From: an uncultured Hyphomicrobiales bacterium
GTDB lineage: Bacteria > Bacteroidota > Ignavibacteria > Kapaibacteriales > UBA2268
Direction of reading: 5' to 3'
Assembly (NCBI GenBank): GCA_964472015.1
Contig: CAYYIP010000007.1
Coordinates: 7,219 to 71,218 of the forward strand
DNA: 64,000 nt
Positions 12,633 through 49,110 of this stretch are shown here, in pieces (within the stretch, counting starts at the first letter, position 1; each line of letters starts with the position of its first letter). The translations under genes were made by a program, and so were the position numbers. Under the pieces are notes generated by a model. That model saw only the letters and a list, made by a program, of their open reading frames with translations. It did not search any database and was not told where the DNA came from.

Positions 12633-12672
12633 ATAATATTTATTATTTATACTTATCTATATTTTTAATTAT

Positions 12673-15600
12673 CTACCTCATAATAATTAAGTTTTTTGTT
12701 TTAATAATATTAGAGTTATTTATAATTTTTATATTATAACTTCCATTACTTAAATAACTAACAGGGAAATTTATTTCATTGTTACCTTTTGTTAATTGCA
12801 CGTCTTGTGTAAGTACTAATTTACCTATTGTATTAAATAATTTTATTGTTACTTTTGTACTAGTGTCAGAGATAAATTTTATTTTTAATTCGTCTTTGAA
12901 TATAATTTCATTAATAATAGTTTCTATGTGATAATTATTAATTTTATTATATACATTAGTGTTACCACAATATCCATATATATTAAATTTACCTTCTTCT
13001 TGCGTTATTTCGCATATTTTATCTGTTAATATATCAAAATTTTTAAAACGTATGGGTGTTTCGTTTGGATATGATAAAAGTGCTATTCCATGAATTTCTA
13101 AAAATTTATTTCTATTGTTTAATATCGTTTGTGCAATATTGCTATTTATACTACCTTTTATACCATCATTAATAGAAAAATTAAATTCTATTTCTTCTTT
13201 TATGTTATTATATATTATATATAATTTTTCAGGATAGAATAGTAAATTATCCATATCTATTGTGAAATCTATAGCTTGTGCATTTATCTCTGATGATACA
13301 GTATCAGTAATAAAAGCGCTAATTATTGCTGTGTTTCCTGGTATAGCTTTTGTTGTATCAAATTTTATTGGTATTATATATTTCTCTATAGGTACAGTTG
13401 CACTTAATGTAATGCTATCATTAACATTACAACTACGTTCAATATTTAATAATATTTTTCCATCATATATATTAGTTTCTGGGCCCGAGAATGAAATATA
13501 AATTTTTTCAGAACTATTTTTTTGTATTAATAAAGGTAGAATTACATTACTTGTAAAGTATATATTTGGTTGAATATTAAAAGTTGTTAAATATACATCA
13601 AATAAAGAAGAATTTGTTATTTCAACTTCCATTGTTTTTTGATGGTTTTTCCATACTTCACCGAAATTTATTATTTTATCAGATATAGTAATTTTTATTG
13701 AATCTGTTATTGAATATAATGTAACATCAAAACTTTTTGGACATACTTTATTTTTTAATATTAATTTAGTTGTATTATAATTTGGTAGATCTATAACTTT
13801 TGAAGGTGTAAAAATTATATCTAATAACTCTTTTGAAAGTGGTTTTATGATAATGGTATCTTTATTAAATTCATAATAATCAGGAATATCAGACGAGGCT
13901 ATAAATAAAGTGTCTTCTAGTGTTCCATTATTTATTATTTCTAAATGTTTTATTATAGCTGAATCACAGTTTTCTGATATATCAAAATTTATACTTTTTT
14001 CATTTATTATTGTATTACTTTTTCTAAATTCATTTTGAAAATAAATAGTATCAAATCTTGTTTCTTGTGTATTGTCATTAAGCATTTCAAATATAATAGA
14101 ATTATTAAAGTTTCCTTCTTTATCATCTATATTATTATATGAAACAATAATTCTTATTTTTTCTACTTGATTTATTTTTAGTGGTAAATTCGGGCACTCT
14201 AATATATTATATTCCGGTTCATTTTTTGTAAAGTTTAATGAAACAAATGTATAAGGCTGAGTATTAGTAACATAAATTGTATCATAAATTATACTATTTT
14301 CACAAGTTGTATAATGTGAAAATGTATGTACGGGATCACCTTTTATGTCTGTGTATTCCAAATTATTGTTAACAAAATCAATTAGAATTGGAATATTTAA
14401 AGTATCAGTGCATTCACTTTTTAAATAAACTAATATGTTTCCTTTATAAGTAAATTCAGTATCTGAAATAGCTTGAAAAGATAAAACTTTTTTACCACTT
14501 GGTGATAAATAAATTGGAAATGTATTTAATAATTCTATCTTAGCATTTTGTACATTTGGTTCTATTATAGCAGAATCTATTCTAATAGTTTGTACAGAAT
14601 TAGAAGTTAAAGTTATATTATATTCTTTAAGTATATTGATATTTAATAAATCATTTATTTCCTTAGGTTCAATAGTTACATCATTTGTTACTCCTTGTCC
14701 ATTTAATACTAATTTAAGAGTATCATTACAAGGTGTTAAAGTTACAATAATTGTATCTTTAAATAATCCTACTTTATATGGTGTAAAACTAATAATATAG
14801 TTTGATTTTTGAGCAGGATCAAGATATTTAGGTGCCTGTTTTACATCAAATCCTTTTAATACATCTTGTTCTATTATATTGGTTAAATCAAATTTTTGAT
14901 TACCTAAATTTTCTATTTCTTTCATTAATGTTATTGAATTTCCTACGCATATATATCCAAAATTAAATTCCAAGATATTATTATTTAATTTATTCTTTTT
15001 AAATATTGCATTAAATTTTATTCTTTTAGGTGCTTCCGAGGTTATTCTTTTTGTATCATTACTTGTTATTAATAATTCACCACTTAATGTATCTAAGTCA
15101 TTTGAATATAAATATAATAATAGTGTATCAGTTGACTTAGGTTTAATAGTAGTAGGTAATGATTTATTATTTGATAGTCCTAGTATTTTTACTTGTCTAT
15201 TTAAAGTTATTGGATTTAATTCATTACTATCTTGTATACTAACTTTGTATACTTCTAAATCATATGTTCCAATATTTTCAATAGGAATTTTTATTGTTGT
15301 ATCATTTTTACAAATAATGTTTATATTATATTCTTTTTTTACATTTATAATAGGTGAGACACCATTTACTTTTAATACAATTGTTTTTGTTTCATTACAG
15401 GGCGAGAATGTAAAAGTATAAGTTACATACGCTATTCCTGTATCACGAGGTGATATTTTAAATTCCATTTTATTGTTTGTATCATTTGGATGTACTGTAA
15501 ATGGAATTTTCGTACTAGCAGAAATATTAGTGAAATCAAGATTATTTGTACTACATTTATATCCTATTATAGTGTCACCAGATTCTGAAAACCATTTTAA

Positions 15601-33583: not shown

Positions 33584-36500
33584 TTGATTATGTTGATTAA
33601 TATGCAAACTATGAAAAAAAATATATATATATTATTGATATTAAACTTATTTATTATCTTTATAGTAGATAATTGTTTTGCTCAAAAAGAGACTTATAAT
33701 TGGTATTTTGGTAATAATGCAGGTATTAGTTTTTTAACTGATGATTTAGAGCCTGTTTTTTTATCAGGTTCTAAAATGGAGCAAATGGAAGGAGTATCAA
33801 CAATTTCAGATAAAAATGGTAATTTATTATTTTATTCTGATGGTGTTTATGTATGGAATCGGCAACATTCTTATATTTCATATGGTGGCGGATTAAAAGG
33901 TAATTATTCATCTTCACGTTCTGTTATTATTATTCCTAGACCACGTTCGAATCGTTATTATTATGTTTTTACTATTGATGCTTTTGAGCGAAGCCTTGGC
34001 ATATCTTCAGATACTAATGGTTTACGTTATTCTGTAATTGATGTTTTAGGAGATAAATATGGTGCTATTATTCCTGATAAATATAATATAAAATTGTTAG
34101 ATGGTGCGGTTGAAAAAATGATAACAATTAATCACGCAAACAAAATAGATGTATGGTTAGTTACTTATAATCGTAAAAATAATAGTTTTTATACATATTT
34201 GATTAATAGGAATGGAATAAATACGCCTAAAATTACTAAGTTAAATGAATTAGATAGTATAAGTTTGTTAGATGCAGTTTTTAATTTAGAATATGATTTT
34301 GAACATAAAAAATTAATTAATTGTTCGAGAGCATCTTATTCTTTTGAGGTATATGATTTTGATAATTTAACGGGTGAAATAGATGTTGCTAATTCATTAA
34401 AAATTCCGTCTTTTATTCCGCATCCCAATTCTGGTGAAGATTCAACTCAATTTTTTATTCCTTATAGTGCTGCAATTTCAGCAGATGGTACAAAATTATA
34501 TGCCAGTTGTTATCGTAAAAGTATTTTACAATACGATATAAGTTCTAAAAATATTGAAGAGATATGTAAAACTAGGTGTGTTATTGCTGATTCGTTAAAT
34601 GGTGATGGTTCTTTTGGGTCTATAAGAAAAGGACCTAATGGTAAAATATACATTACTTGTGATACAAGTGAGTATTTATCAGTAATAAATTTTCCTAATA
34701 AATTAGGAAAGGAATGTAATTTTGTTAAAAAGGCTATATTTTTAGAGGGAGGATGTTGTAGATTAGGGTTACCTATTATGATGAATTATGATGTACCGCC
34801 ATGTGATTTCTCAGGTTATGCGGGTGATGATAAAATTGTATGCACTGGAGAAGAATTAAAAATAGGAGATGTTGCCGATACAACAAATTTAAAATTTGAA
34901 TGGACACCGCAAATGTTTTTAGATAATCCATATATCTTAAATCCTGTTTGTCGACCTCTAGAAACTATAACTTATGTATTAAAAATAACAGATACGGAAT
35001 TAGATTGTTTTGATTTTGATACAGTAACTATTACGGTTATAGAAGCACCAAAAATATTGAATGCAGAAGATGTTCATACTTGTAAGAATAATTCTATTAT
35101 GATAGGGAATAGTAACAATAGTGATGAATATATTTATCAATGGGAACCAGAACTTTATTTAGATGATTTTAATGCTAAAACGCCTATTTGTAAGCCAGAA
35201 ACTGAAATGACTTATATTTTGACTGTTACTAATGAATTTGGTTGTAAAAGTTATGATACGGTAAGAGTTTTCTTAAAACCTTTATCTGATATTAATATAA
35301 CAGGTGACTCTTATATTTGTGAAGGTGATTCTACGACATTAAGACTGAAAGGTGATTTTATTTCTTGTGAATGGAATACTGGTGAAACGACTAATTCTAT
35401 TGTTGTAAAAAAAACAGGTGTTTATTCTGCAGAAGTTGTTGATAGGAATGGATGCACAGGAGATATATATTTTGAAGTTAAATATTTTGTTTCAGATTCT
35501 ATAAAAATAATTGCGCCAAAAACTATTTGTGAAAATACATATACTAATATTTACGTAGAGGATGTATTTGAAAGTTATTTATGGAGTACAGGAGAAACTA
35601 CATCAAGTATTGATGTTAATAAGAGTGGAAAATACTGGGTAATAGGAGTTAATGAAAATGGTTGCAAGTCTTATGATACGGTAGATATTTTATCTTATGA
35701 ATTAAATTATACTTTATACGATGAAGCTATAAATTTATATTCTTGTCTCTATAATAGTACTTCGCAAGAATTTTATATACAAAATGAAGGCGAAGAAGCT
35801 ATTACTGTAAGTTCTATAAAGTTACTTATTAATGATACAAAAAATAATATTGATATTGTAACTACAAATACTTTACCTGAAAATATAGAAGATAGGTTTT
35901 ATTTTAATATAAATCTAGTTGGACTAGAAGTTGGGAATTATTATGATACAGTATTAGTAGAGGTTTCTTATCCTTGTCAAATGCTAATAAAGATCCCAAT
36001 AAATATAATTATTAATGAGGAATATTTAAGTGTATCATCAAAAGATATAATTATAAGACCGGGGCAAAATATAATTATTCCTATATATACACTGTATCAT
36101 AATGTAAATTCTTATTTGCCTGATACAGCAATATTTTTATATGATTTTTTCTACGATAATGAACTTTTAAAAATAAAAAGTGTAAAAAATGCAAATATTA
36201 TTTTTGATGATTATAATAGTGGTATTTTACATTTATCAAAGAATACATTACAAATAAAACAAGGTGATACTATATTTATAGAAGCATTTACTTCTTTAGG
36301 AACGTCTGAGGAGTTTAATTTAAAAGATGTATTTTCTTTTAGAGTATTTTTAAAGCCACCAGTAGATGTTGATACTAAATATTATTGTATAGATACTTGC
36401 AGTAGTATTCATTCAATCAATATTGATGGATGTATGGTTAGTTTAGAAAAGTTTAAATTATTAAACAATACAGTATTAAAAATAAATAATGTTATAGATA

Positions 36501-36727
36501 ATACTATAAAATGTAATATTTCAACTCAAGAAATAGGAGAGTTAAATGTTGAATTGTGTGGTTTAGCAGGAAATATTATAGATAAAAAAGTATGGATGAG
36601 AAAGGAAGATAATTTTGAAAGTAAGGAAATTATCTTTAATATAGAAAATTATGTTAATGGTATATATTTTATAATTTTAAGAACAAATAATAATTATTTT
36701 TCAGAAAAATTTATTATATTTAAGTAA
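33584..36727 (+). CDS. Large (1047 aa) secreted protein of unknown function with a T9SS C-terminal sorting domain
   Basis: Signal peptide. Repeated Cys-containing about 90-aa modules (..WTPQ..LDNPYILNPVCRP.., ..WEPELYLDDFNAKTPICKP..). C-terminus ..NGIYFIILRTNNNYFSEKFIIFK. Confidence 0.7.
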   Translation: MIMLINMQTMKKNIYILLILNLFIIFIVDNCFAQKETYNWYFGNNAGISFLTDDLEPVFLSGSKMEQMEGVSTISDKNGNLLFYSDGVYVWNRQHSYISYGGGLKGNYSSSRSVIIIPRPRSNRYYYVFTIDAFERSLGISSDTNGLRYSVIDVLGDKYGAIIPDKYNIKLLDGAVEKMITINHANKIDVWLVTYNRKNNSFYTYLINRNGINTPKITKLNELDSISLLDAVFNLEYDFEHKKLINCSRASYSFEVYDFDNLTGEIDVANSLKIPSFIPHPNSGEDSTQFFIPYSAAISADGTKLYASCYRKSILQYDISSKNIEEICKTRCVIADSLNGDGSFGSIRKGPNGKIYITCDTSEYLSVINFPNKLGKECNFVKKAIFLEGGCCRLGLPIMMNYDVPPCDFSGYAGDDKIVCTGEELKIGDVADTTNLKFEWTPQMFLDNPYILNPVCRPLETITYVLKITDTELDCFDFDTVTITVIEAPKILNAEDVHTCKNNSIMIGNSNNSDEYIYQWEPELYLDDFNAKTPICKPETEMTYILTVTNEFGCKSYDTVRVFLKPLSDINITGDSYICEGDSTTLRLKGDFISCEWNTGETTNSIVVKKTGVYSAEVVDRNGCTGDIYFEVKYFVSDSIKIIAPKTICENTYTNIYVEDVFESYLWSTGETTSSIDVNKSGKYWVIGVNENGCKSYDTVDILSYELNYTLYDEAINLYSCLYNSTSQEFYIQNEGEEAITVSSIKLLINDTKNNIDIVTTNTLPENIEDRFYFNINLVGLEVGNYYDTVLVEVSYPCQMLIKIPINIIINEEYLSVSSKDIIIRPGQNIIIPIYTLYHNVNSYLPDTAIFLYDFFYDNELLKIKSVKNANIIFDDYNSGILHLSKNTLQIKQGDTIFIEAFTSLGTSEEFNLKDVFSFRVFLKPPVDVDTKYYCIDTCSSIHSINIDGCMVSLEKFKLLNNTVLKINNVIDNTIKCNISTQEIGELNVELCGLAGNIIDKKVWMRKEDNFESKEIIFNIENYVNGIYFIILRTNNNYFSEKFIIFK

Positions 36728-38889: not shown

Positions 38890-40467
38890 ATGTTAAAAAA
38901 ACAAGCAAAAGAAAAAGCAATAGAAGTAGCCTTGTGGGAAACAGCAAATAAATTGCGTGGAAGTGTTGAACCTTCGGAATATAAGCACGTGGTATTGGCG
39001 TTGATTTTTTTGAAGTTTGTGAACGATAAATTTGAGGAGCAACGACAAAAACTAATTAATTGTGGCAAAGAGAAATACATTGAAAACTCGGACTTTTACA
39101 ATAAGGACAAAGTCTTTTTTCTAAAAGAAGAGACCCGTTGGAAATATATTGTTAGTAAAGCTCGCCAAAACGATATTGCGTTGATAATTGATTCCGCTTT
39201 ACACACTATAGAAAAAGACAATAAAGTTCTGAAAGGTGCATTGCCTGATAACTATTTTTCACGTCTTGGACTTGATACCTCTAAATTAGCTGCTCTTATC
39301 AGCGAAATAGATAGCATATATATACTCAAGGACAAAGAGCAAGATGTTATTGGACGTATTTACGAGTATTTTCTGAGTAAGTTTGCCATTGCTGAAGGAA
39401 AAGGGAAAGGTGAGTTTTACACGCCCAAAAGCATTGTAAATTTAATTGCCGAGCTGATAGAGCCTTACAAAGGTTTTATTTATGATCCATGTTGCGGTTC
39501 GGGCGGAATGTTTGTGCAGTCTATCAAGTTTATTGAAGCACACCACGGCAATCAAAAAGAGGTTTCCATTTACGGACAGGAATATACGAACACAACGTAT
39601 AAATTGGCGAAAATGAATCTTGCCATTCGAGGCATTTCTGCTAATTTAGGCGAAAAAGCCGCTAACACTTTTAGCAACGATTTACATAAAGATTTAAAAG
39701 CCGATTTTATTATGGCAAATCCTCCTTTCAACCAAAAAGATTGGCGAGCAGAAAACGAACTTTTAGACGATCCTCGCTGGAAAGGTTACGAAGTACCACC
39801 CAAAAGCAACGCTAATTATGGTTGGATACTTCACATGGCATCTAAGCTTTCGGGAAATGGTGTAGCAGGATTTCTTTTAGCAAACGGAGCATCGAGCGGT
39901 GGCGGTGATGAGTATAAAATACGTAAACAGTTGATTGAAAATGATTTGGTTGAAGCTATCTTGATTTTACCACGAAATATGTTTTACACAACCGATATAA
40001 GCGTAACTCTTTGGATATTGAATAAAAACAAAAAAGAATACGTAAGGGCGTATGGCGATATACCTCAACGAAATTACCGAAATCGACAAAAAGAAATTCT
40101 TTTTATGGATTTGCGGGAAATGGGCGAGCCGTTTGAGAAAAAGTACATACAATTCTCTGAAAAAGATATTAGGAAAATAGCTGATAATTATCATAACTGG
40201 CAATGTACGGGTGAATTGAATTCGCCATATCAAGATATTCCAGAATTCTGCTATTCCGCAGGTATAGAAGAAATTAGAGAGAAAGATTATTCGCTTGTAC
40301 CGAGCAGATACATAGAATTTGTAAATCGTGATGAACAGATTGATTTTGACGAAAAAATGAAAACTTTACAGCAGGAAATTGGTAAATTATTACAAGAAGA
40401 AAAAAAATCGCGAGAAGAATTGTTAGCTGTTTTTAAAAATTTAGGTTATAAAATTGAGTTAAAATGA
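38890..40467 (+). CDS. hsdM: Type I restriction-modification system methyltransferase subunit
   Basis: HsdM N-terminal domain (LWETANKLRG); SAM motif DPCCGSGGMF; catalytic NPPF (IMANPPFNQKDW). G+C is clearly above the genome background. Confidence 0.9.
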   Translation: MLKKQAKEKAIEVALWETANKLRGSVEPSEYKHVVLALIFLKFVNDKFEEQRQKLINCGKEKYIENSDFYNKDKVFFLKEETRWKYIVSKARQNDIALIIDSALHTIEKDNKVLKGALPDNYFSRLGLDTSKLAALISEIDSIYILKDKEQDVIGRIYEYFLSKFAIAEGKGKGEFYTPKSIVNLIAELIEPYKGFIYDPCCGSGGMFVQSIKFIEAHHGNQKEVSIYGQEYTNTTYKLAKMNLAIRGISANLGEKAANTFSNDLHKDLKADFIMANPPFNQKDWRAENELLDDPRWKGYEVPPKSNANYGWILHMASKLSGNGVAGFLLANGASSGGGDEYKIRKQLIENDLVEAILILPRNMFYTTDISVTLWILNKNKKEYVRAYGDIPQRNYRNRQKEILFMDLREMGEPFEKKYIQFSEKDIRKIADNYHNWQCTGELNSPYQDIPEFCYSAGIEEIREKDYSLVPSRYIEFVNRDEQIDFDEKMKTLQQEIGKLLQEEKKSREELLAVFKNLGYKIELK

Positions 40468-42440
40468 ACGAAAAGCAAATAAATCCTTTTGAATTAGATG
40501 ATGAGTATGTTATATACTCACTCATAAACGAAGAATTTTTACCGGAAGAGTACCATGAACTTGAATATAAATCCGGTAAAGATGGATTTCCAAAAGAGAT
40601 TTGGAAAACATATTCAGCCTTTGCCAACACAAATTCTGGTATTATTATCATTGGTATAAAAGAGAAAAGAGGTGTTTTTCTAATTGAGGGATTGACAGAA
40701 GAACAAATTTCAAATTATAAAAAGCATTTTTGGGACAGCTGCAACAATCCGAATACCGTTAGTGTCAATCTTTTGAGTAACGAAGATATAAAAGTAATTG
40801 AGACAAATTCAAAAAAACTGTTAGTTATTCGAGTTCCTTTCGCTCATCGTACCAAAAGACCGGTTTTTCTTACACGAAATCCATTTGGAAACACGTACAA
40901 ACGCAACTACGAAGGCGACTACAGATGTACTGATGACGAAGTAAGAAGAATGTTAGCTGAAGGCGGCACAGAACTTAAAAGAGATAACTTGCTTTTAGAA
41001 AATTTCACGATAGACGATTTAGATCCTGTTAGTATTCGTCAGTTTCGTCAATTGTTTTCATCTACAAGACCGGGGCACCCTTGGCTTGCTTTAGAAGATA
41101 AAGACTTACTAAAGAAACTCGGAGCTTATCGCATTGACCGAAAAACTGGACAAGAAGGAATTACGCTTGCTGGGCTGTTAATGTTTGGCAAAGGAGACAG
41201 CATACGAGAACAAGATGCTTTACCTGATTACTTTCCTGATTTTAGAGAGCGTTTGTCAATAGATGAAAAAGTGCGATGGACAGATCGTATTTATCCCGAC
41301 GGAACTTGGGAAAGTAATTTACTTCAATTTTATTTGAAAGTATTGCCCAAATTATCATCTACATTACCTAAACCATTTCGCTTAGATAAAGATGAACGTG
41401 TTGATGAAACACCTGCTCATATTGCGTTGCGTGAAGCTTTTGTAAATACATTGGTGCATACTGATTATTTGTTAAGTGGTAACATTATCATTGAACTTGA
41501 TACCGAACAATTTGTATTTTCAAATCCCGGTACATTACTCGTTTCTTTGGAACAATATTATGCGGGAGGAGTGAGTGAGTGCCGTAATCCTGCATTACAA
41601 CAAATGTTTATGCTGATTGGTCGTGCTGAAAAAGCTGGTAGTGGAGTGGACAAAATTATGTCAGGCTGGCAAGATTCTCATTGGCGAAAGCCTTTTCTTG
41701 TGTTAGAAAACCGACCTGATAAAGTTAAACTCACTTTACCTATGTTTAGCGTGTTGCCTGAACAAGTACTAAACGAGTTAAATACTATTTATGGCGATGT
41801 GAGTCATTTTAGTTCCGACGAACTAACTGCACTTTCTTTCTGTCTGATAGAGGGTTCAATTTCCAACCACCGCTTGCAATATGTGTTAAATATGCACAGT
41901 TCAGACATTACGAAAATGCTTAAAAAATTGTGTGTGGGTGATTATTTAGAAGCTGAAAATTATGGTCGCTGGACTACTTATAAAATTAAACATAAGGTTG
42001 CAAGCTCAGGCGGAAAGGTTGACACCTCAGGCGAAAAGGTTGCAAGCTCCGATAGAAAGGTTGCAACCTCAGGCGAAAAGGTTGCAAGCTCTGGTGGAAA
42101 CCTTGCAAGCTCTGGTGGAAACCTTGCAAGCTCTGGTGGAAACCTTGCAAGCTCTGGTGGAAACCTTGCAAGCTCAGGCGGAAACCTTGCAAGCTTAACT
42201 GAACTTCCTAAAAGGATAAGTATAGAAAAAATGGAAGATATAATTATGCGAATTTGTAAGGATAATTACGTTAAAAAAGAAGACCTTGCAACATTATTGA
42301 ACCGTTCAGAAAATTATATAAGAAATGAAATTTTACCTAAAATGATAAAAGAGAAAAAAATAGAGAAAAAATATCCGTTTACGCTTAATCATCCTGAACA
42401 AGCTTATAAAACTACAGAGGAATATGCAGAAAAACTATAA
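40464..42440 (+). CDS. COG2865-type Schlafen-like ATP-binding protein / putative transcriptional regulator (AlbA_2 + HATPase_c_4-like + C-terminal HTH), inserted between hsdM and hsdS
   Basis: N-terminal ELEYKSG..IWKTYSAFANTNSGIIIIGIKEKRG matches AlbA_2. TLVHTDYLLSGNIIIELDTEQFVFSNPGTL matches HATPase_c_4. ATGA overlap with hsdM. An internal 7-aa repeat region sits ahead of the C-terminal domain. Confidence 0.75.
   Translation: MNEKQINPFELDDEYVIYSLINEEFLPEEYHELEYKSGKDGFPKEIWKTYSAFANTNSGIIIIGIKEKRGVFLIEGLTEEQISNYKKHFWDSCNNPNTVSVNLLSNEDIKVIETNSKKLLVIRVPFAHRTKRPVFLTRNPFGNTYKRNYEGDYRCTDDEVRRMLAEGGTELKRDNLLLENFTIDDLDPVSIRQFRQLFSSTRPGHPWLALEDKDLLKKLGAYRIDRKTGQEGITLAGLLMFGKGDSIREQDALPDYFPDFRERLSIDEKVRWTDRIYPDGTWESNLLQFYLKVLPKLSSTLPKPFRLDKDERVDETPAHIALREAFVNTLVHTDYLLSGNIIIELDTEQFVFSNPGTLLVSLEQYYAGGVSECRNPALQQMFMLIGRAEKAGSGVDKIMSGWQDSHWRKPFLVLENRPDKVKLTLPMFSVLPEQVLNELNTIYGDVSHFSSDELTALSFCLIEGSISNHRLQYVLNMHSSDITKMLKKLCVGDYLEAENYGRWTTYKIKHKVASSGGKVDTSGEKVASSDRKVATSGEKVASSGGNLASSGGNLASSGGNLASSGGNLASSGGNLASLTELPKRISIEKMEDIIMRICKDNYVKKEDLATLLNRSENYIRNEILPKMIKEKKIEKKYPFTLNHPEQAYKTTEEYAEKL
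41994..42196 (+). repeat. In-frame 21-bp tandem repeat (about 9.7 units), with 4 consecutive perfect copies of aaccttgcaagctctggtgga
   Basis: Units read directly from the sequence (aaggttgcaagctcaggcgga ... aaccttgcaagctctggtgga x4 ...). They encode KVASSGG / NLASSGG heptads. The repeat creates spurious ORFs in other frames and on the opposite strand. Confidence 0.9.
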
Positions 42441-43551
42441 GCGATTAGGCGATTATATACAAGAATTCAATGTCCGTAACACAGATTTAGCTATTACCAA
42501 TCTTTTAGGTGTGAGTATAGAAAAAACTTTTATACCATCCGTAGCAAATCTTAATGGCGTGGATTTATCTGTATATAAAATATTGAAAAAAGACCAGCTA
42601 GCTTGTAATTTAATGATCGTAGAGCGTGATAAAAAACTTCCTGTAGATTTGTATAGAGAAGAAAAACCAGCTATAGTTTCTTCTGCATATTATGTTTTTG
42701 AGCCAAAAAACAAAGAAGAATTATTACCTGAATATTTAATGATGTGGCTTTTTCGACCTGAAAGTGATAGGTATTTTGGTTTTATTAGTGGCGGAGATGT
42801 AAGAGGTGGAATTACTTGGGAGACATTTTGCAGTCTTCCAATTAAAGTCCCAAAAATTGAAAAACAACGAGAAATCGTAAAAGAATACAAAACAGTAGAG
42901 AGACGCATACAGATAAACGAAGAGCTCTGCAAAAAATTAGAAGAAACAGCACAAGCGCTATATAGAAAATATTTTGTAGAAGATATAGACCCAGAAAATT
43001 TACCGGAAGGGTGGAGATGGGGAAAGTTAGAGGAGGTTGCTAAGATTACAATGGGACAATCACCAGTGGGAGAAAGTTATAACACTGATGGAATTGGAGA
43101 AATATTTTATCAAGGTAGAAGCGATTTTGGAATGCGATTTCCCACAATTAGAATGTTTACAAATGAGCCTACCAAAATGGCTAAAAAAGATGATATTTTA
43201 TTAAGTGTTAGAGCACCTGTTGGGGACATAAATATTGCACCACACAATTGCTGTATTGGTAGAGGATTAGCAAGCATAAGAAACAAGAAAAAACAGAAGT
43301 CTTATATGTTTTATCTAACAAAAAATTTAGATACAATTTTTAATATAGCAGACGGAGCTGGAACAATCTTTGGAAGTATTAATAGAGATACACTTTTGAA
43401 TATTGACGTAATAATTCCTAATGAAGAAGTTATTCAATTATTTGAAAAAAAAGTTTCAACAATTGATAAGCTGTATGAATATAATGATATAGAAACGCAA
43501 AAGCTAAAAGAATTACTATCTTTGTTGTTGGCAAAGATGGGGAGAGAATAA
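42424..43551 (+). CDS. hsdS: Type I restriction-modification system specificity subunit
   Basis: Two target-recognition domains separated by, and ending in, the conserved HsdS helical regions (..EELCKKLEETAQALYRKYF.. and ..QKLKELLSLLLAKM). Overlaps the upstream gene by 17 nt. Confidence 0.8.
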   Translation: MQKNYKRLGDYIQEFNVRNTDLAITNLLGVSIEKTFIPSVANLNGVDLSVYKILKKDQLACNLMIVERDKKLPVDLYREEKPAIVSSAYYVFEPKNKEELLPEYLMMWLFRPESDRYFGFISGGDVRGGITWETFCSLPIKVPKIEKQREIVKEYKTVERRIQINEELCKKLEETAQALYRKYFVEDIDPENLPEGWRWGKLEEVAKITMGQSPVGESYNTDGIGEIFYQGRSDFGMRFPTIRMFTNEPTKMAKKDDILLSVRAPVGDINIAPHNCCIGRGLASIRNKKKQKSYMFYLTKNLDTIFNIADGAGTIFGSINRDTLLNIDVIIPNEEVIQLFEKKVSTIDKLYEYNDIETQKLKELLSLLLAKMGRE

Positions 43552-43557
43552 GAAGAT

Positions 43558-44076
43558 ATGAATTTTATTTTAAGATTTTTTTTTACAATTAGCGCTGTAT
43601 CTTTTTTTGTTGTTGTTTATTTAGTACAAAATAAGATAAATCCATTTGATGAGGTTCTTGGAAAATATGCGTGGTTAATTTATATAGTGTACGTACTTTT
43701 TCCATTTATACTGACTTGTATATCACTGCGAATTTGTAAATTATTAGCCAGAAACTCGATTAAAAAAATACAATCAATAGAACCATCGAATAATGATTTC
43801 CTTGCCACCTATCTTGCGTTCTTTTTTGTTGCATTAAGTATTAAAGGAACAATTACTTTTTGGATAGTATTTGGAATGACGGTTCTTTTTACTTTTGTTT
43901 CAAGAGTATCATACTTTAATCCGGTTCTTTTAGTATTTGGTTACAATTTTTATTATATAGTTACAGGGGAGAATGTAAAGATTATGTTAATTAGCAAACA
44001 AAAATTAAAAGCTCCGAATAATTTTGATCATAAAGATGTAGGACGCATCAATGATTATACATTTATAGATATTTAA
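43558..44076 (+). CDS. Hypothetical integral membrane protein (4-5 TM, 172 aa) inside the type I R-M locus
   Basis: Hydrophobic helices FFTISAVSFFVVVYLV, WLIYIVYVLFPFILTCISL, YLAFFFVALSI, FWIVFGMTVLFTFV and PVLLVFGYNFYYIV. No recognisable motif. Starts 7 nt after the hsdS stop. Confidence 0.6.
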   Translation: MNFILRFFFTISAVSFFVVVYLVQNKINPFDEVLGKYAWLIYIVYVLFPFILTCISLRICKLLARNSIKKIQSIEPSNNDFLATYLAFFFVALSIKGTITFWIVFGMTVLFTFVSRVSYFNPVLLVFGYNFYYIVTGENVKIMLISKQKLKAPNNFDHKDVGRINDYTFIDI

Positions 44077-44079
44077 AAT

Positions 44080-44889
44080 ATGGCAGAATTAATAGTAAAA
44101 TACAAATCTGAATACAAAAATGTATTGAAACAAGAAGACAATATTATTGAAAATATTGATCTAACTAATGTAGAACAAATAGATTTTACAACAAGCTATA
44201 AGCTTGAAGATAATGAATGGTTTAAAATTACTGATTTTAGCAATCAAGACTATGTTGTTGAAATATGTAATGAAAATTTCAGTACTGCAAGTCTCGTGCA
44301 AATAGTTAACAAGGAGTATGAAGATATTAAAGAAATAGTTATTTTGCAGAACGAGCAGATGCATTTCCAAAGGGTTACTCCTTCTTATTATGTAAATAAG
44401 AAAACTTTTTTAGACTATTCAGGAAGTCCCAAAGTAGTAGAACACAGAAAACAGATCGAGATAAAAAAAGAATCTGATGCTGTATATTTGTTAGAAACTG
44501 ACACATTGTTATTTAAAGATATATCTAAAATAAAACCTATTTTTAAAGGAATAGAGATGTTGCATCGAGAAGCAACACAAGAGGAAGTTAACACATTTAT
44601 GGAATATGATTTCATTTCAACGTTAAATTTTGACTCTAAACGTGTAGGTGTTCAAAATCGAAAAAGAATAGCTGATATTGGGGTAAAATATGCTAATCTT
44701 TCAAGCGAGAAACAAAAAGGACTAATAACTTATGCAAAAGAGAAATCAGGAATTGATATAGAGGATGGCAAATTTCTAATTAGAAATGATAACGATTTGA
44801 AAAACTTGCTTTACGCAATGGATCAACGTTATTATTATGCTGATATATATGAAGAAAATAGAATTGCTAACTCCATTCGTATTGTGTAA
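44080..44889 (+). CDS. Hypothetical soluble protein (269 aa), translationally coupled to the membrane protein
   Basis: Starts 4 nt after the upstream stop. No catalytic motif that I can recognise. Charged, Lys/Glu-rich. Confidence 0.55.
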   Translation: MAELIVKYKSEYKNVLKQEDNIIENIDLTNVEQIDFTTSYKLEDNEWFKITDFSNQDYVVEICNENFSTASLVQIVNKEYEDIKEIVILQNEQMHFQRVTPSYYVNKKTFLDYSGSPKVVEHRKQIEIKKESDAVYLLETDTLLFKDISKIKPIFKGIEMLHREATQEEVNTFMEYDFISTLNFDSKRVGVQNRKRIADIGVKYANLSSEKQKGLITYAKEKSGIDIEDGKFLIRNDNDLKNLLYAMDQRYYYADIYEENRIANSIRIV

Positions 44890-44960: not shown

Positions 44961-45926
44961 ATGATCAATTTTCATGCACATAATCGCAAAAGTATTCGTC
45001 TAAAAGGATACGATTATTCGCAAGAAGGATTGTATTTTATAACGATTTGTTGTCAAGATAAAATTTGTAGGTTTGGACATATTGAAAACGACGAAATGAT
45101 ATGTAACCAATATGGAATTGTGGCATATAATGAATGGATAAAAACGTCACAAATACGTTCCAATATTACGTTGCACGAATTTGTTGTAATGCCCAATCAT
45201 ATCCACGGTATTATTGAAATAAATCGCGATGCGGAATTATATTCCCAAAACCGTGGTTGCGAATTGCGTTCGCCAAATTGTAGTGGCGAATTGTATTCGC
45301 CCGTTCCAAAGGGCGTATTCGATACGCCCCAACAGCCCGATTTCGATACGTCCGTTCGTGGTTGCGAATTTTATTCGCCAAATTGTAGTGGCGAATTGTA
45401 TTCGCCCATTCCAAAGGGGGTATTCAATACGCCCCAACAGCCCGATTTTGATTTGTCCGTTCGTGGTTGCGAATTGCGTTCGCAAAATTGTGGTTGCGAA
45501 TTGCATTCGCCAAATTGTAGTGGCGAATTGTATTCGCCCATTCCAAAGGGGGTATCCGATACGCCCCAACAGCCCGATTTCGATACGTCCGTTCGTGGTT
45601 GCGAATTGCGTTCGCAAAATTGTAGTGGCGAATTGTATTCGCCCGTTCCAAAGGGGGTATTCGATACGCCCCAACAGATTGATTTCGATACGTCCCGATT
45701 GCGATCACCGTCGCAAACGGTTGGTGCCATCGTTCGCGGATACAAATCGGCGGTTACAAAACAATTGAATGCGTTGGGAATGACCGAAAAATTATGGCAA
45801 CGCAATTATTACGAACATATTATACGCAATGAACAATCATATATACATATTTCTGAATATATTCGCAACAATCCCATACAATGGATAAACGATAGATTTT
45901 ATGATTATGAAATTTACAGAAAATGA
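44961..45926 (+). mobile_element. IS200-like REP-associated tyrosine transposase (RAYT) whose ORF carries an in-frame insertion of a REP array
   Basis: N-terminal part with HuH motif VVMPNHIHGII. C-terminal part with the RAYT Tyr motif LWQRNYYEHIIRNEQSY. Together these make about 165 aa, the normal RAYT size. They are separated by about 150 aa encoded by palindromic repeats. Confidence 0.7.
45252..45700. repeat. Four tandem about 105-bp units (unit 3 carries a 27-bp internal duplication), each holding three REP-like hairpins (gcgaa-ttgcg-ttcgc; ggcgaa-ttgta-ttcgcc; gggcgtat-tcg-atacgccc)
   Basis: Direct reading: cgtggttgcgaattgcgttcgccaaattgtagtggcgaattgtattcgcccgttccaaagggcgtattcgatacgccccaacagcccgatttcgatacgtccgtt repeated 4 times with point differences. 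Open in several frames on both strands. Confidence 0.9.
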
Positions 45927-48900
45927 ATTAGAAAAGGCATTTATCAAATTATTAGAGCAAGAGGGCTATACGCATAGTGCAGGTGCTTCGGTATCACGTT
46001 CCTCAATGAACGAGGTGCTGATAAAAGAAGATTTGCGTAGGTTTTTGCATTCGCACTATAAGGCAGATGAGCTGACGGGAAACGAGGTAAATTTCATTAT
46101 CCAGCAACTTAACTCGCTTCCTGCCAGCGATTTATATGAAAGTAATAAACGGTTTATGCAGATGCTTTCAGACGGTTTTATTCTGAAAAGAGATGACCAC
46201 AAGCAGAAAGATCTTTACATTGAGCTTATCAACTATAGATTTTTGAAAAAAAATCTACATCTTAAAACAGAAAAATATACTTCTATAGTTGCGGAAAATA
46301 ATGACGACAATAACATCTACAGATTTGTAACTCAATTGGAAATCGTAGGGAATGAAAAACGTATTCCCGATGGAATTGTTTATGTAAACGGTTTACCATT
46401 AGTGGTTTTTGAATTTAAGACTCCCGTTAAAGAAGAGGTTACTATTTATGATGCTTACAAGCAACTTACGGTGCGTTATCGTCGCGATATTCCCGAACTT
46501 TTCAAGTACAACGCTTTTTGTGTTATCAGTGACGGCGTAAACAGCAAAGCAGGTTCATTGTTTGCCTCTTACGAGTTTTATTACGCATGGAGAAGAATAG
46601 CAAGTTTAGCAAAAGATGTTGACGGAATTGATAGTATGTTTACCCTAATTAAAGGAGTTTTCGACAAAAACCGTTTTCGAGACATACTTCGTAATTTTAT
46701 CTTTTTCCCCGATACAGAAAAAAATGAAAGTAAAATCGTTTGTCGTTATCCTCAATATTACGCTGCCCGTGCTTTGTTCGAAAATATCAAGCAAGCTCAA
46801 AAACCTCACGGCAACGGAAAAGGCGGAACCTATTTCGGAGCAACTGGCAGTGGCAAGAGCTTCACGATGCTTTACCTTACACGTTTGCTGATGAAAAGCG
46901 AACATTTTGCTAGTCCAACTATCGTACTTATTACAGATCGTACCGATTTAGACGATCAGCTCTCTGCACAATTTGTAAATGCCAAGAGATTTATAAGTGA
47001 TGATACAGTGCAAAGCGTTGAAAATCGTGCTGATTTACGCGAGAAGCTACAAGGCAGACAGAGCGGAGGTGTTTTTCTTACTACTATACAGAAATTTACT
47101 GAAGATACGGAATTGCTTACCGAACGCAATAATGTGATTTGTATTTCAGATGAAGCACATCGCACACAAACAAATCTCGATCAAAAAATCCGTATTACCG
47201 AACAAGGAGTTACTAAATCATTTGGCTTTGCTAAATATCTGCACGATTCTTTGCCTAATGCTACTTACGTTGGTTTTACTGGAACACCTATAGATGCTAC
47301 ATTAGATGTTTTCGGTCCGGTGGTAGATTCCTACACAATGACCGAATCAGTTAAAGATGAAATTACTGTGCGTATCGTTTACGAAGGCAGAGCTGCTAAA
47401 GTAGCTTTAGATAACAGTAAATTAGAGGAGATTGAACGTTACTACGAAGCAGCTGCGGAAGCTGGAGCTAACGAATATCAAATTGAGCAAAGCAAAAAAG
47501 AGACTGCTAAAATGAATGCTATTCTTGGCGACCCGAAACGTTTACAAAGTGTTGCCGAAGATTTTGTAGAACATTACGAAAAACGTGTTTCGGAAAAAGC
47601 AACGCTGAAAGGTAAAGCTATGTTTGTTTGTAGCAACAGAGAAATAGCTTATGATCTGTTTAAGCGTATTATTACACTTCGTCCCGAATGGAATGAAATA
47701 CGTGCAGCAGAAGAAGGAGCAGAACTTTCCGATAAGGATAAAAGGGAATTAAAACCTATAGAGCGAATAAAAATGGTAATGACACGGTCAAAAGACGACG
47801 AAAAAGAACTTTGGGATTTGTTAGGGACAAAGGAATATAGAAAAGAGCTTGACAGACAATTCAAAAATGAAAAATCTAACTTTAAAATAGCTATCGTGGT
47901 TGATATGTGGCTCACAGGATTCGACGTGCCTTTTTTGGATACAATTTATATAGACAAACCAATACAACAACATAATCTAATACAAACTATTTCGCGAGTA
48001 AATCGTCGAGTGGAAGGAAAAGATAAAGGGCTTGTGGTTGATTATATCGGCATAAAGAACAAGATGAATTTGGCACTTGCTCAATACGATAAAATTGAAG
48101 GTGATAACTTTGAAGATATTTCTCAATCACTTGTGATAATGCGAGAGCATTTGGATTCGTTGAAACATTTGATGCATACGTTCGACGATACAAAGTATTT
48201 TAAAGGTTCAAATTTAGAACAACTAAATACACTTAATTTGGCTGCTGAATTTGTACAACAAACCAAAGAAACTGAAAGCCGATTTATGGGACTAACAAAA
48301 CGTTTGAAAGCTGCTTATGATATTTGTGTGGGAAGCGAACAAATAACACAGAAAGATCGAGATTATGTACATTTTTATATAGCTATTCGTTCCATTGTTT
48401 TTAAACTGACTAAAGGCGATATTCCCGATGTGGTACAAATGAATAACCGAGTACGTCAGATGATTGAAGAAGCTTTACAAAGTGACGGTGTTGAGGAAAT
48501 ATTAAAAATTGGCGATGAAACTAAAAGTGAACAAGATTTGTTTGATGAAAAGTATTTGGCAAAAATCAATAAGATAAAGCTACCTAATACGAAAATTAAA
48601 CTCTTGCAGAAGCTCTTAGCAAAAGCTATCGGGCAACTGCGAAAAATTAATCGCATAAAAGGAATTGACTTTAGCCATCGAATGCAAAAGTTAGTGGATC
48701 AATACAACGACCGTTCAGTAAACGATATTTTGCGAAGCGAGGTATATGAAGAGATGGCTGAAAAACTTACCGCTATGATTTGGGATGTACACGAAGAATT
48801 TTATGCCGGCGAAAAGTTGGGAATTGATTTTGAAGAAAAAGCCTTTTACGATATTCTAAAAGAATTGTGTGTGAAATACGATTTTAAATATCCCGACGAC

Positions 48901-49110
48901 AAAATGATAAAGTTGGCTAAAAAAGTCAAAGAGCTAGTTGATTTTATAGCCAGTTATCCCGATTGGAATAAGCAAGAGAATATAAAATCAGAGTTGAAAG
49001 CTGGATTAATTGTGTTGCTTGATGAATACAATTATCCGCCTGTTGAACGAGATGAAGTTTATGTAGAAATTTTTGAACAAGCGGAGAATTTTAAGAAAAA
49101 TAGAGAATAA
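45901..49110 (+). CDS. hsdR: Type I restriction-modification system endonuclease subunit
   Basis: HsdR N-terminal domain (MKFTENELEKAFIKLLEQEGY); SF2 helicase motifs including Walker A GATGSGKS and DEAH (ICISDEAHRTQ); 1069 aa. Overlaps the RAYT 3' end by 26 nt. Confidence 0.9.
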   Translation: MIMKFTENELEKAFIKLLEQEGYTHSAGASVSRSSMNEVLIKEDLRRFLHSHYKADELTGNEVNFIIQQLNSLPASDLYESNKRFMQMLSDGFILKRDDHKQKDLYIELINYRFLKKNLHLKTEKYTSIVAENNDDNNIYRFVTQLEIVGNEKRIPDGIVYVNGLPLVVFEFKTPVKEEVTIYDAYKQLTVRYRRDIPELFKYNAFCVISDGVNSKAGSLFASYEFYYAWRRIASLAKDVDGIDSMFTLIKGVFDKNRFRDILRNFIFFPDTEKNESKIVCRYPQYYAARALFENIKQAQKPHGNGKGGTYFGATGSGKSFTMLYLTRLLMKSEHFASPTIVLITDRTDLDDQLSAQFVNAKRFISDDTVQSVENRADLREKLQGRQSGGVFLTTIQKFTEDTELLTERNNVICISDEAHRTQTNLDQKIRITEQGVTKSFGFAKYLHDSLPNATYVGFTGTPIDATLDVFGPVVDSYTMTESVKDEITVRIVYEGRAAKVALDNSKLEEIERYYEAAAEAGANEYQIEQSKKETAKMNAILGDPKRLQSVAEDFVEHYEKRVSEKATLKGKAMFVCSNREIAYDLFKRIITLRPEWNEIRAAEEGAELSDKDKRELKPIERIKMVMTRSKDDEKELWDLLGTKEYRKELDRQFKNEKSNFKIAIVVDMWLTGFDVPFLDTIYIDKPIQQHNLIQTISRVNRRVEGKDKGLVVDYIGIKNKMNLALAQYDKIEGDNFEDISQSLVIMREHLDSLKHLMHTFDDTKYFKGSNLEQLNTLNLAAEFVQQTKETESRFMGLTKRLKAAYDICVGSEQITQKDRDYVHFYIAIRSIVFKLTKGDIPDVVQMNNRVRQMIEEALQSDGVEEILKIGDETKSEQDLFDEKYLAKINKIKLPNTKIKLLQKLLAKAIGQLRKINRIKGIDFSHRMQKLVDQYNDRSVNDILRSEVYEEMAEKLTAMIWDVHEEFYAGEKLGIDFEEKAFYDILKELCVKYDFKYPDDKMIKLAKKVKELVDFIASYPDWNKQENIKSELKAGLIVLLDEYNYPPVERDEVYVEIFEQAENFKKNRE

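What the first reader, a model, noticed from the sequence alone, without database searches (positions are those of the whole stretch)
43558..44889. Uncharacterised two-gene cassette (4-5 TM membrane protein + 269-aa soluble protein) wedged between hsdS and hsdR: a candidate undescribed defence module
The two ORFs are translationally coupled (starts 7 nt and 4 nt after the upstream stops) and sit inside a type I R-M operon, where accessory anti-phage genes are commonly embedded. Neither shows any catalytic or family motif I can recognise. Their G+C is visibly lower than that of the flanking hsd genes, which suggests a separate insertion into the island. The membrane-partner-first arrangement recalls Kiwa (KwaA 4-TM + KwaB) and, with the order reversed, RexB/RexA-type abortive-infection pairs, but no sequence similarity can be asserted from reading alone. 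If neither matches a known family, this is a small membrane-anchored two-component system riding on an R-M island, which is where new defence systems are typically found.
Basis: partly seen in the sequence, partly recalled or inferred. Interest (0 to 1): 0.8.

Follow-up and report, generated by a model that had tools for sequence, protein, structure and literature searches.

The report
Divergent Kiwa defence pair inside R-M operon
The two unnamed genes are a distant, short version of the known Kiwa anti-phage system (membrane sensor KwaA plus DNA-binding KwaB), so they are not a new defence system; the less ordinary point is that this branch of Kiwa is usually built into a type I restriction-modification operon, in bacteria from several phyla.

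Summary
ORFs 43558-44076 (172 aa) and 44080-44889 (269 aa) exist, start 7 and 4 nt after the upstream stops, and lie between hsdS and hsdR.

- **Sequence:** PADLOC KwaA and KwaB profiles match both proteins full-length (E 8e-15 and 8e-16).
- **Fold:** AlphaFold models match only solved KwaA and KwaB structures in the PDB.
  - KwaA: Foldseek E 1e-6, TM 0.70.
- **Architecture:** the KwaA model has four TM helices plus six cytoplasmic beta-strands, as published for KwaA.
- **Why it looked unknown:** identity to the solved E. coli proteins is only 12-23%, Pfam and NCBIfam miss both proteins, and RefSeq calls relatives hypothetical.

In 35 related loci kwaA always directly precedes kwaB (33/33). 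Most pairs sit in the same hsdS-kwaA-kwaB-hsdR slot, with the kwaB stop abutting the hsdR start. The low G+C recurs across the family, so it does not mark a local insertion.

In this window a RAYT-like gene has been inserted between kwaB and hsdR.

Likely function: KwaA senses membrane disturbance at DNA entry and KwaB binds the incoming DNA, layered with restriction. Verdict: a new member of a known kind, of modest interest.

The parts
43558..44076 (+). kwaA-like gene: 172-aa inner-membrane protein with four TM helices and a cytoplasmic beta-barrel built from the TM2-TM3 loop and the C-terminal tail.
   Evidence: PADLOC KwaA PDLC00221 E 7.9e-15 (residues 1-172 against 2-170 of 173), with five further KwaA models; NCBIfam KwaA NF041622 E 3.6e-6, below its cutoff. 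AlphaFold model pLDDT 87: helices 3-24, 40-61, 78-94, 98-114 and strands 65-68, 71-76, 130-136, 141-146, 159-165, 168-171. The top six Foldseek PDB hits are all KwaA (9mrx_A E 1.1e-6, TM 0.70/0.63); the next hit is E 0.59.
44080..44889 (+). kwaB-like gene: 269-aa soluble protein, a short form of the KwaB (DUF4868) DNA-binding effector.
38890..40467 (+). hsdM, methyltransferase subunit of the host type I R-M operon.
   Evidence: Pfam N6_Mtase E 4.7e-103 and HsdM_N E 1.2e-21. HsdM of 67-74% identity lies upstream of kwaAB in most related loci.
40464..42440 (+). Passenger gene between hsdM and hsdS: a 658-aa protein with Schlafen/AlbA_2 and HATPase_c_4 domains and a GGNLASS heptad repeat. It is not part of the conserved five-gene core.
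   Evidence: Pfam SLFN_AlbA_2 E 4.7e-12 and HATPase_c_4 E 1.3e-9. A 21-nt tandem repeat of 9.4 copies lies at 41998-42195. It is absent from most related loci and present at the same place only in L022 (63% identity).
42424..43551 (+). hsdS, specificity subunit; its stop lies 6 nt before the kwaA start.
   Evidence: Pfam Methylase_S E 1.6e-22, two stretches. Junction sequence. hsdS lies upstream of kwaA in 21 of 27 loci with enough sequence.
44961..45926 (+). Inserted RAYT / IS200-like Y1 transposase gene whose middle is filled with G+C-rich palindromic tandem repeats. It separates kwaB from hsdR in this genome.
   Evidence: NCBIfam REP_Tyr_transpos E 1.7e-17 (two stretches) and Pfam Y1_Tnp E 6.3e-6. 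Tandem repeats of period 105-237 nt lie at 45242-45695. In uninterrupted loci the kwaB stop abuts the hsdR ATG.
45901..49110 (+). hsdR, restriction/translocase subunit. The conserved start is probably the ATG at 45907 (M-K-F-T-E).
   Evidence: Pfam HSDR_N, SWI2_SNF2, T1R_D3-like and T1RH-like_C. Nearest solved relative is EcoR124I HsdR, E 3.6e-28. Alignments to related HsdR begin at residue 3. Sequence.

Best explanation
The pair is a divergent, short-form Kiwa anti-phage and anti-plasmid system.

**Proposed mechanism (inferred from E. coli Kiwa).** KwaA (172 aa) sits in the inner membrane, probably as a tetramer. Its cytoplasmic beta-barrel docks dimers of KwaB (269 aa). When a phage tail or a conjugation pilus disturbs the membrane at the DNA entry site, KwaA activates KwaB. 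KwaB then binds the incoming DNA without cutting it, and stalls its replication and late transcription. The infected cell is not killed.

**Operon context.** In this lineage the cassette is part of a type I R-M operon (hsdM-hsdS-kwaA-kwaB-hsdR) and is co-expressed with it. Incoming DNA therefore meets a modification-dependent nuclease and a modification-independent DNA-binding block together.

**Shown here:** homology by profile and by fold, the KwaA architecture, strict kwaA-kwaB adjacency, and conserved embedding with translational coupling to hsdR.

**Inferred:** oligomeric state, the trigger, DNA binding, and the defence phenotype.
For: **Sequence.** PADLOC KwaA (6 models, best E 7.9e-15) and KwaB (3 models, best E 7.7e-16) match both proteins end to end. 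NCBIfam KwaA gives a sub-threshold hit, E 3.6e-6. Relatives of 57-58% identity reach Pfam PF16162 KwaB.

**Fold.**
- The KwaA model (pLDDT 87) matches only KwaA chains: 9mrx_A, 9mrg and 9mrr, E 1e-6 to 1e-3, TM up to 0.70.

**Architecture.** Four TM helices and six beta-strands from ICL1 and the C-terminus. This matches the published KwaA description (PMC11785009).

**Gene order and context.**
- kwaA lies directly upstream of kwaB in 33 of 33 loci, with a gap of 0-6 nt.
- Standalone two-gene copies occur on Apilactobacillus, Roseivivax and Proteus plasmids, so the pair is an autonomous module.
- Neighbours are defence genes almost everywhere: type I R-M, an MmeI-type R-M enzyme, a STAND NTPase, Abi_2 and RhuM.

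**Mechanism.** Taken from PMC11785009.
Against: - Identity to the characterised E. coli proteins is only 12-14% for KwaB and 17-23% for KwaA.
- Profiles built from this clade (A1, A2) and from the wider KwaB-like family (A3) do not reach the solved Kiwa chains by sequence.
- Pfam KwaB misses the window protein and 55 of 60 members of the wider family.
- Both proteins are shorter than the E. coli ones (172 against about 195 aa; 269 against 315 aa), so parts of the published interfaces may be missing.
- I could not map the DNA-contacting or KwaA-KwaB interface residues, because no canonical sequence or coordinates were available to align.
- No member of this clade has been tested.
- In this genome a RAYT insertion has broken the kwaB-hsdR coupling.
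Confidence: 0.8

Rival explanations
1. The pair is a Kiwa-derived accessory of the type I R-M enzyme, not an independent system. In this clade KwaAB would be functionally wired to HsdR/HsdM. One option is a guardian or back-up that takes over when a DNA-mimic anti-restriction protein (Ocr, ArdA or Gam-like) blocks the R-M enzyme, as PrrC does in EcoprrI. Another is a decoy that splits such inhibitors between two targets, as reported for Kiwa and RecBCD. A third is a membrane tether that holds incoming DNA where the R-M complex can act.
For: - hsdS lies upstream in 21 of 27 loci and hsdR downstream in at least 16 of 26, in hosts from several phyla.
- The kwaB stop abuts or overlaps the hsdR start codon in eight loci.
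- The pair recurs in non-orthologous type I operons: L019 (HsdR 30% identical), L051 (31%), and Neisseria gonorrhoeae L057, which has a different gene order.
- By my recollection it is the same slot as prrC; the review read here says only that prrC is embedded in the type IC locus ecoprrI (PMC12707154).
- E. coli KwaB is itself a target of the DNA mimic Gam, and Gam is partitioned between Kiwa and RecBCD (PMC11785009).
Against: - More distant family members stand alone on plasmids or sit beside other defence genes (L008, L011, L058, L059, L061). R-M is therefore not needed for the family as a whole.
- Kwa and Hsd divergences are only weakly correlated, which suits a passenger cassette.
- Other unrelated passengers use the same operon (RhuM, Abi_2, Schlafen-like, RAYT). 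The slot may simply tolerate inserts and provide a promoter.
- Ocr did not inhibit E. coli Kiwa in the paper.
- No physical interaction was tested.
Confidence: 0.2
2. One reading: a previously undescribed two-gene membrane-anchored defence system, unrelated to any known family.
For: There are no Pfam or NCBIfam hits above threshold for either window protein. Relatives are named 'hypothetical protein' in RefSeq and GenBank. Single-sequence and clade-profile searches do not reach any PDB chain.
Against: PADLOC KwaA and KwaB hits on both proteins are full-length, E about 1e-15. Fold matches are exclusive to the solved KwaA and KwaB structures. The KwaA-specific layout of 4 TM helices plus six beta-strands is present. 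Gene order is the same as in Kiwa.
Confidence: 0.03
3. The pair has a housekeeping membrane function (a transporter subunit plus a cognate enzyme), or is an inactive remnant that happens to lie in the operon.
For: There are weak chance-level hits to MerF (E 0.011) and to an O-antigen polymerase model (E 0.067) for the membrane protein. The operon in this window has suffered two insertions, a Schlafen-like gene and a RAYT gene.
Against: - No transporter or enzyme family scores significantly.
- Distribution is patchy across phyla and linked to defence genes, typical of horizontally moved defence modules.
- Both ORFs are intact and full-length relative to more than 150 homologues each.
- True remnants look different: truncated kwaB next to an IS3-family transposase in L015, and an hsdM-kwaB fusion in L012.
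Confidence: 0.05

Closest known systems
Kiwa (KwaA/KwaB) of E. coli O55:H7 RM12579 and ECOR49; structures 9mrx, 9mrg, 9mrr, 9nyu, 9o0i; mechanism in PMC11785009
   Same: - A two-gene operon with the membrane protein first.
- KwaA fold: four TM helices plus a six-stranded cytoplasmic barrel formed by ICL1 and the C-terminus.
- KwaB fold.
- PADLOC profiles for both proteins match.
- Location in defence islands, with a patchy, horizontally transferred distribution.
   Different: - Identity is only 12-23%.
- Both proteins are shorter (172 against about 195 aa; 269 against 315 aa).
- Both fall below the Pfam PF16162 and NCBIfam NF041622 thresholds.
- This clade is usually embedded in a type I R-M operon with kwaB translationally coupled to hsdR. 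The Kiwa paper does not mention this.
- Function is untested.
PrrC anticodon nuclease in the EcoprrI type IC R-M locus
   Same: An accessory defence gene embedded inside a type I R-M operon and co-expressed with it. The review read here says prrC is embedded in the type IC locus ecoprrI (PMC12707154). That it sits between hsdS and hsdR is my recollection of the EcoprrI literature. The window's HsdR is most similar to the type IC enzyme EcoR124I among solved structures.
   Different: There is no sequence or fold relation. PrrC is a single cytoplasmic ABC-ATPase-like tRNA nuclease, held latent by the R-M enzyme, and it acts by abortive infection. Here there are two genes, one of them membrane-bound, and no nuclease domain. 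Characterised Kiwa is non-abortive.
RexA/RexB of phage lambda
   Same: A two-component pair made of one membrane protein and one soluble protein.
   Different: Gene order is reversed and it is prophage-encoded. It acts by membrane depolarisation and abortive infection. No homology was detected in any search here.

Membership tests
Kiwa (KwaA/KwaB) | KwaA: matches KwaA sequence profiles. | tested here: met
   Six PADLOC KwaA models hit, the best PDLC00221 at E 7.9e-15, covering 1-172 of 172 aa and 2-170 of 173 profile positions. The NCBIfam equivalog NF041622 scores only 26.9 bits against a cutoff of 100. Membership therefore holds at superfamily or subfamily level, not as an equivalog of E. 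coli KwaA.
Kiwa (KwaA/KwaB) | KwaA: integral membrane protein with four TM helices and a six-stranded cytoplasmic beta-barrel made of ICL1 and the C-terminus (PMC11785009). | tested here: met
   The AlphaFold model (pLDDT 87, pTM 0.78) has helices 3-24, 40-61, 78-94 and 98-114. It has two strands in the TM2-TM3 loop and four in the C-terminal tail. K/R residues are enriched in that loop and tail. Foldseek matches only KwaA chains, TM 0.70/0.63 to 9mrx_A.
Kiwa (KwaA/KwaB) | KwaB: carries the DUF4868 / KwaB domain (Pfam PF16162). | tested here: inconclusive
   There is no PF16162 hit for the window protein at E <= 1. Relatives of 57-58% identity score 25.1 and 27.1 bits against the cutoff of 26.3. 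Only 5 of 60 members of the wider family hit at E <= 1e-3. PADLOC KwaB ('DUF4868 domain') models do hit, E 7.7e-16, 2.1e-15 and 1e-10, nearly full-length.
Kiwa (KwaA/KwaB) | KwaB: fold of the solved KwaB (N-terminal alpha/beta domain plus C-terminal helical DUF4868 domain). | tested here: met
Kiwa (KwaA/KwaB) | Operon: kwaA immediately followed by kwaB on the same strand. | tested here: met
   The gap is 3 nt in the window. kwaA is adjacent upstream in 33 of 33 related loci, with gaps of 0-6 nt.
Kiwa (KwaA/KwaB) | KwaA tetramer and KwaB dimer assemble into a membrane supercomplex; the interface residues are conserved. | not testable with these tools
   No multimer prediction was available, and I had no canonical Kiwa sequence or coordinates to align. 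The interface residues listed in PMC11785009 could not be mapped.
Kiwa (KwaA/KwaB) | KwaB binds DNA without cleaving it; the system protects against phage and conjugation without abortive infection. | not testable with these tools
   This needs EMSA and plaque or conjugation assays. The only sequence hint is an invariant or nearly invariant basic motif, N193-R-K-R-I-A-D199, at the start of a long helix.
PrrC-type R-M guardian (resemblance in working, not membership) | The gene is embedded in a type I R-M operon and co-transcribed with it. | tested here: met
   The order is hsdM-hsdS-kwaA-kwaB-hsdR in most related loci. No terminator-like site lies between hsdS, kwaA and kwaB. The kwaB stop abuts the hsdR start.
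PrrC-type R-M guardian (resemblance in working, not membership) | ABC-ATPase-like N-domain and anticodon nuclease C-domain; activity is masked by the R-M enzyme and released by an anti-restriction factor. | tested here: not met
   Neither protein has a PrrC, ATPase or nuclease domain. Regulation by the R-M enzyme could not be tested.

The most novel reading that the evidence does not exclude
This short Kiwa clade has become an integrated third module of a type I R-M machine. kwaA-kwaB-hsdR are translationally coupled, and the cassette has been captured repeatedly by non-orthologous type I operons. KwaAB might hold incoming DNA at the membrane entry site for the R-M complex. Alternatively it might act as a back-up or decoy when DNA-mimic anti-restriction proteins block HsdMSR, a membrane-based counterpart of the PrrC-EcoprrI guardian arrangement. 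I found no description of this in the literature I could search.
Probability: 0.2. Interest if true: 0.65.

Novelty: new member of a known kind. Interest (0 to 1): 0.35.

Why it matters
For annotation, a large family can now be labelled as short-form KwaB. It has 628 representatives at the 50% identity level, about 270 aa each, and is called 'hypothetical protein' in RefSeq. Its 172-aa partner can be labelled KwaA. Pfam and NCBIfam thresholds currently miss both.

For biology, characterised Kiwa is a standalone pair whose link to other defences is indirect, through sharing the inhibitor Gam with RecBCD. Here a Kiwa branch is hard-wired into type I R-M operons across Bacteroidota, Gammaproteobacteria, Betaproteobacteria and others, with the kwaB stop fused to the hsdR start. 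That gives a natural system for testing whether a membrane-sensing DNA binder and a restriction enzyme cooperate, and whether DNA-mimic anti-restriction proteins are partitioned between them.

If the two are merely co-located, the finding is an ordinary defence-island passenger.

Tried and rejected
**Searches that did not reach Kiwa**
- Single-sequence phmmer of both proteins against PDB sequences gave only chance hits: a methyltransferase at E 0.04 and a GABA receptor at E 0.7.
- Profiles of the close clade (A1, A2) and of the wider KwaB-like family (A3) against PDB sequences did not reach KwaA or KwaB. Only PADLOC subfamily HMMs and fold comparison make the link.
- Pfam on the window KwaB gave nothing. 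Pfam on nine distant relatives gave nothing relevant.

**Searches that found nothing**
- A viral-contig scan for KwaB relatives found none, so there is no evidence that this clade is phage-borne.
- The sigma-70 promoter scan was not above shuffled expectation (54 against 45 +/- 6) and gave no useful operon boundaries. The host is probably a Bacteroidota, whose promoters the tool does not cover.
- I looked in the Kiwa paper for accession numbers of canonical KwaA and KwaB, to map the DNA-binding and interface residues. None are in the held text, so residue-level comparison was dropped.
- Literature searches for Kiwa inside type I R-M operons found nothing.

**Ideas rejected**
- Low G+C as evidence of a recent local insertion: the offset recurs across the family.
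- ORF2 as a fragment of a larger gene: homologue lengths are constant.
- Loci that seemed to lack hsd genes as a non-defence context: most carry other defence genes.
- The C-terminal kwaB fragments as a sign of programmed cassette exchange: the ones I examined in detail look like decay. L015 is cut next to an IS3-family transposase, and L012 is an in-frame hsdM-kwaB deletion fusion.
- L052, with several inverted kwaA/kwaB/hsdR pieces, looks like a chimeric assembly and was not used.
Full report
**1. The observation**

hsdS ends at 43551, so ORF1 starts 7 nt later. ORF1 ends at 44076, and ORF2 starts 4 nt later (TAAaatATG).

The flanking genes are a bona fide type I R-M system:
- hsdM 38890-40467 (N6_Mtase, E 5e-103).
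- hsdS 42424-43551 (Methylase_S, E 2e-22).
- hsdR 45901-49110 (HSDR_N, SWI2_SNF2, T1R_D3-like, T1RH-like_C).

ORF1 is strongly hydrophobic and ORF2 is not. G+C is 0.266 and 0.285 for the pair, against 0.32-0.36 for the hsd genes.

- A 321-aa ORF (44961-45926) lies between ORF2 and hsdR.
- The pair's G+C equals the window mean (0.272). Relative to the host, the hsd genes are the ones that stand out.

Both ORFs are real genes under selection. I found 186 and 154 full-length homologues at about 50-80% identity with constant lengths.

**2. What it is**

PADLOC profiles identify ORF1 as KwaA. Six models hit, the best at E 7.9e-15, covering 1-172 against 2-170 of 173 profile positions. They identify ORF2 as KwaB. 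Three models hit, the best at E 7.7e-16, covering 18-268 against 36-287 of 289.

The curated general libraries miss both proteins:
- Pfam has no KwaB (PF16162) hit.
- NCBIfam KwaA scores 26.9 bits against a cutoff of 100.
- Relatives of 57-58% identity straddle the Pfam KwaB cutoff, at 25.1 and 27.1 bits against 26.3.

Sequence profiles built from this clade, and from the wider KwaB-like family, do not reach the solved E. coli proteins. I therefore tested the assignment by fold.

*KwaA.* The model has pLDDT 87 and pTM 0.78. It shows four TM helices (3-24, 40-61, 78-94, 98-114), two beta-strands in the TM2-TM3 loop, and four in the C-terminal tail. [quoted passage not shown] In the PDB it matches only KwaA chains. 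The best is 9mrx_A at E 1.1e-6, TM 0.70/0.63, 17% identity; 9mrg and 9mrr follow. The next hit has E 0.59.

The pair is therefore a deeply diverged, shorter form of Kiwa. Lengths are 172 against about 195 aa, and 269 against 315 aa.

**3. The family and its context**

A full HMM scan of 1.84 billion representatives finds 628 clusters at E <= 1e-3 and 201 at E <= 1e-30. Nearly all are 270-285 aa. Only 5 of 60 sampled members reach Pfam KwaB. RefSeq and GenBank name the relatives 'hypothetical protein'.

Genome and metagenome scans gave 35 distinct loci with a full-length close relative.

| Feature | Count |
|---|---|
| kwaA directly upstream of kwaB | 33 of 33 |
| kwaA-kwaB gap | 0-6 nt in every locus printed |
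| hsdS upstream | 21 of 27 with enough sequence |
| hsdM upstream | 12 of 16 |
| hsdR downstream | at least 16 of 26 |

The hsdR count is an undercount, because L025 is a short duplicate of L026, which does have hsdM and hsdR.

Hosts include Flavobacteriaceae, Cyclobacterium, Cytophagales, Galbibacter, gammaproteobacterial mussel symbionts and a bin labelled Methanosarcina. Their HsdM and HsdR are about 70% identical to the window's.

In the uninterrupted loci the kwaB stop abuts the hsdR start. The sequence is TAAATGAAATTCACAGAA (M-K-F-T-E) in L001, L004, L005, L006, L020, L021 and L029, and an ATGA overlap in L007. The ancestral core is therefore hsdM-hsdS-kwaA-kwaB-hsdR, with kwaA, kwaB and hsdR translationally coupled.

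The window departs from this core by two insertions:
- A Schlafen/AlbA_2-HATPase_c_4 gene between hsdM and hsdS, shared only with L022.
- The RAYT-like gene between kwaB and hsdR.

The conserved hsdR start is the ATG at 45907. No terminator-like site separates hsdS, kwaA and kwaB.

**4. Passenger or partner?**

The G+C dip of kwaAB relative to hsdM/hsdR recurs in 13 of 14 related loci, with a mean difference of 0.073. It is a family trait and not a local insertion scar.

Pairwise divergence across 12 operons:

| Pair compared | Mantel r |
|---|---|
| HsdM-HsdR | 0.98 |
| KwaA-KwaB | 0.80 |
| Kwa against Hsd | 0.22-0.51 (p 0.03-0.16) |

The sample is small, so this is indicative only.

Similar kwaAB pairs also sit in clearly different type I operons:
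- L019: HsdM 43% and HsdR 30% identical, about 60% G+C against 40-45% for kwaAB.
- L051: KwaB 42%, HsdR 31%.
- Neisseria gonorrhoeae L057: KwaB 35%, with a different order, hsdR ... kwaA-kwaB-hsdM.

More distant relatives stand alone on small plasmids of Apilactobacillus, Roseivivax and Proteus. Others sit beside different defence genes: an MmeI-type R-M enzyme with a helicase in L008, and a STAND NTPase in L011. Both proteins of the Neisseria, Apilactobacillus and Roseivivax pairs, and the Proteus KwaA-like protein, are PADLOC-positive; the Proteus KwaB-like protein is not. All are Pfam-negative.

So kwaAB is an autonomous two-gene cassette that type I R-M operons have captured repeatedly. 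The same operons also host RhuM, Abi_2 and Schlafen-like passengers. Truncated kwaB copies mark decay, by an IS3-family insertion in L015 and an hsdM-kwaB fusion in L012.

**5. How it most likely works**

This section is inference from the E. coli system (PMC11785009).
- KwaA tetramers in the inner membrane bind KwaB dimers through the cytoplasmic barrel.
- Membrane distortion at a phage attachment or DNA ejection site, or at a conjugation site, activates the complex.
- KwaB binds the entering DNA non-specifically, without cleavage. This stalls replication forks and late transcription.
- The cell survives, so this is not abortive infection.

In KwaB of this clade an invariant or nearly invariant basic motif, N193-R-K-R-I-A-D199, begins a long helix. 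It is my candidate DNA-contact patch, and it is untested.

Co-expression with HsdMSR would pair a modification-dependent nuclease with a modification-independent block.

The rival reading is functional coupling to the R-M enzyme, either as a PrrC-like guardian or through partitioning of a DNA mimic. The conserved slot, the stop-start fusion with hsdR and the repeated capture suggest it. The standalone relatives and the weak co-divergence argue against it. I give it about 0.2.

**6. Comparison, novelty and verdict**

The pair meets the Kiwa criteria that I could test:
- Sequence profiles for both proteins (PADLOC).
- Both folds.
- KwaA architecture.
- Gene order.

The Pfam DUF4868/KwaB criterion is inconclusive. 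Oligomeric assembly, DNA binding and the defence phenotype could not be tested here.

It is not a PrrC, RexAB or transporter relative.

I rate it a new member of a known kind. It is a divergent short-form Kiwa that a PADLOC run would flag, and that general annotation leaves as hypothetical.

The conserved, translationally coupled embedding in type I R-M operons is the one feature I could not find described. My literature access is partial. Interest overall is modest, at 0.35.

Noticed in passing
window 44961-45926 (+), repeats at 45242-45695: The gene inserted between kwaB and hsdR is a REP-associated tyrosine transposase (RAYT/IS200-like). Its N- and C-terminal parts match the family, but its middle is filled by G+C-rich (about 0.48) tandem repeats of period 105-237 nt. 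These carry palindromes such as TTGCGAATTGCATTCGCAA. All six frames stay open across the repeats. The palindrome occurs five times, only inside this ORF, and nowhere else in the 64-kb window. The ORF's end overlaps the hsdR start by 26 nt.
   Followed up: partly
window 40464-42440 (+), repeat at 41998-42195: A 658-aa protein with Schlafen/AlbA_2 and HATPase_c_4 domains is wedged between hsdM and hsdS, overlapping both. It contains a 21-nt tandem repeat (9.4 copies) that encodes GGNLASS/GEKVASS heptads. The same gene sits at the same place in L022 (63% identity). Schlafen-like genes also occur downstream of kwaB in L003, L026 and L033.
   Followed up: partly
L015 10231-11214; L047 689-1660; L048 8173-9000; L025 2185-3180: RhuM-family genes repeatedly occupy the gap between kwaB and hsdR, and an Abi_2 gene does so in L025/L026. 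The kwaB-hsdR junction looks like a recurrent landing site for extra passengers.
   Followed up: partly
L012 312-1145 (same contig as L046); L015 9108-10234: These are decay products of the module. L012 has an in-frame fusion of an hsdM N-terminal fragment to the C-terminal 170 residues of KwaB. L015 has a kwaB cut to its last 72 codons next to an IS3-family transposase, with RhuM and hsdR still downstream.
   Followed up: partly
L052 (ENA ERZ26869290 ctg250407), whole 5.2 kb: The contig holds several inverted copies of kwaA, kwaB and HsdR N-terminal fragments. It is most likely a chimeric long-read assembly and not a shufflon.
   Followed up: no
L002 (DADO01000114.1, 'Methanosarcina sp. UBA402' MAG) 5314-12804: A complete hsdM-hsdS-kwaA-kwaB-hsdR module, 63-72% identical to the window's, lies in a bin labelled as an archaeon. 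This is either inter-domain transfer or a mis-binned bacterial contig. Operon G+C is 0.32-0.42, against 0.45 for the flanks.
   Followed up: no
window 33584-36727 (+): A 1047-aa secreted protein lies just upstream of the island. Together with the 27% G+C of the window, this suggests a low-G+C Bacteroidota host. The organism was not identified.
   Followed up: no
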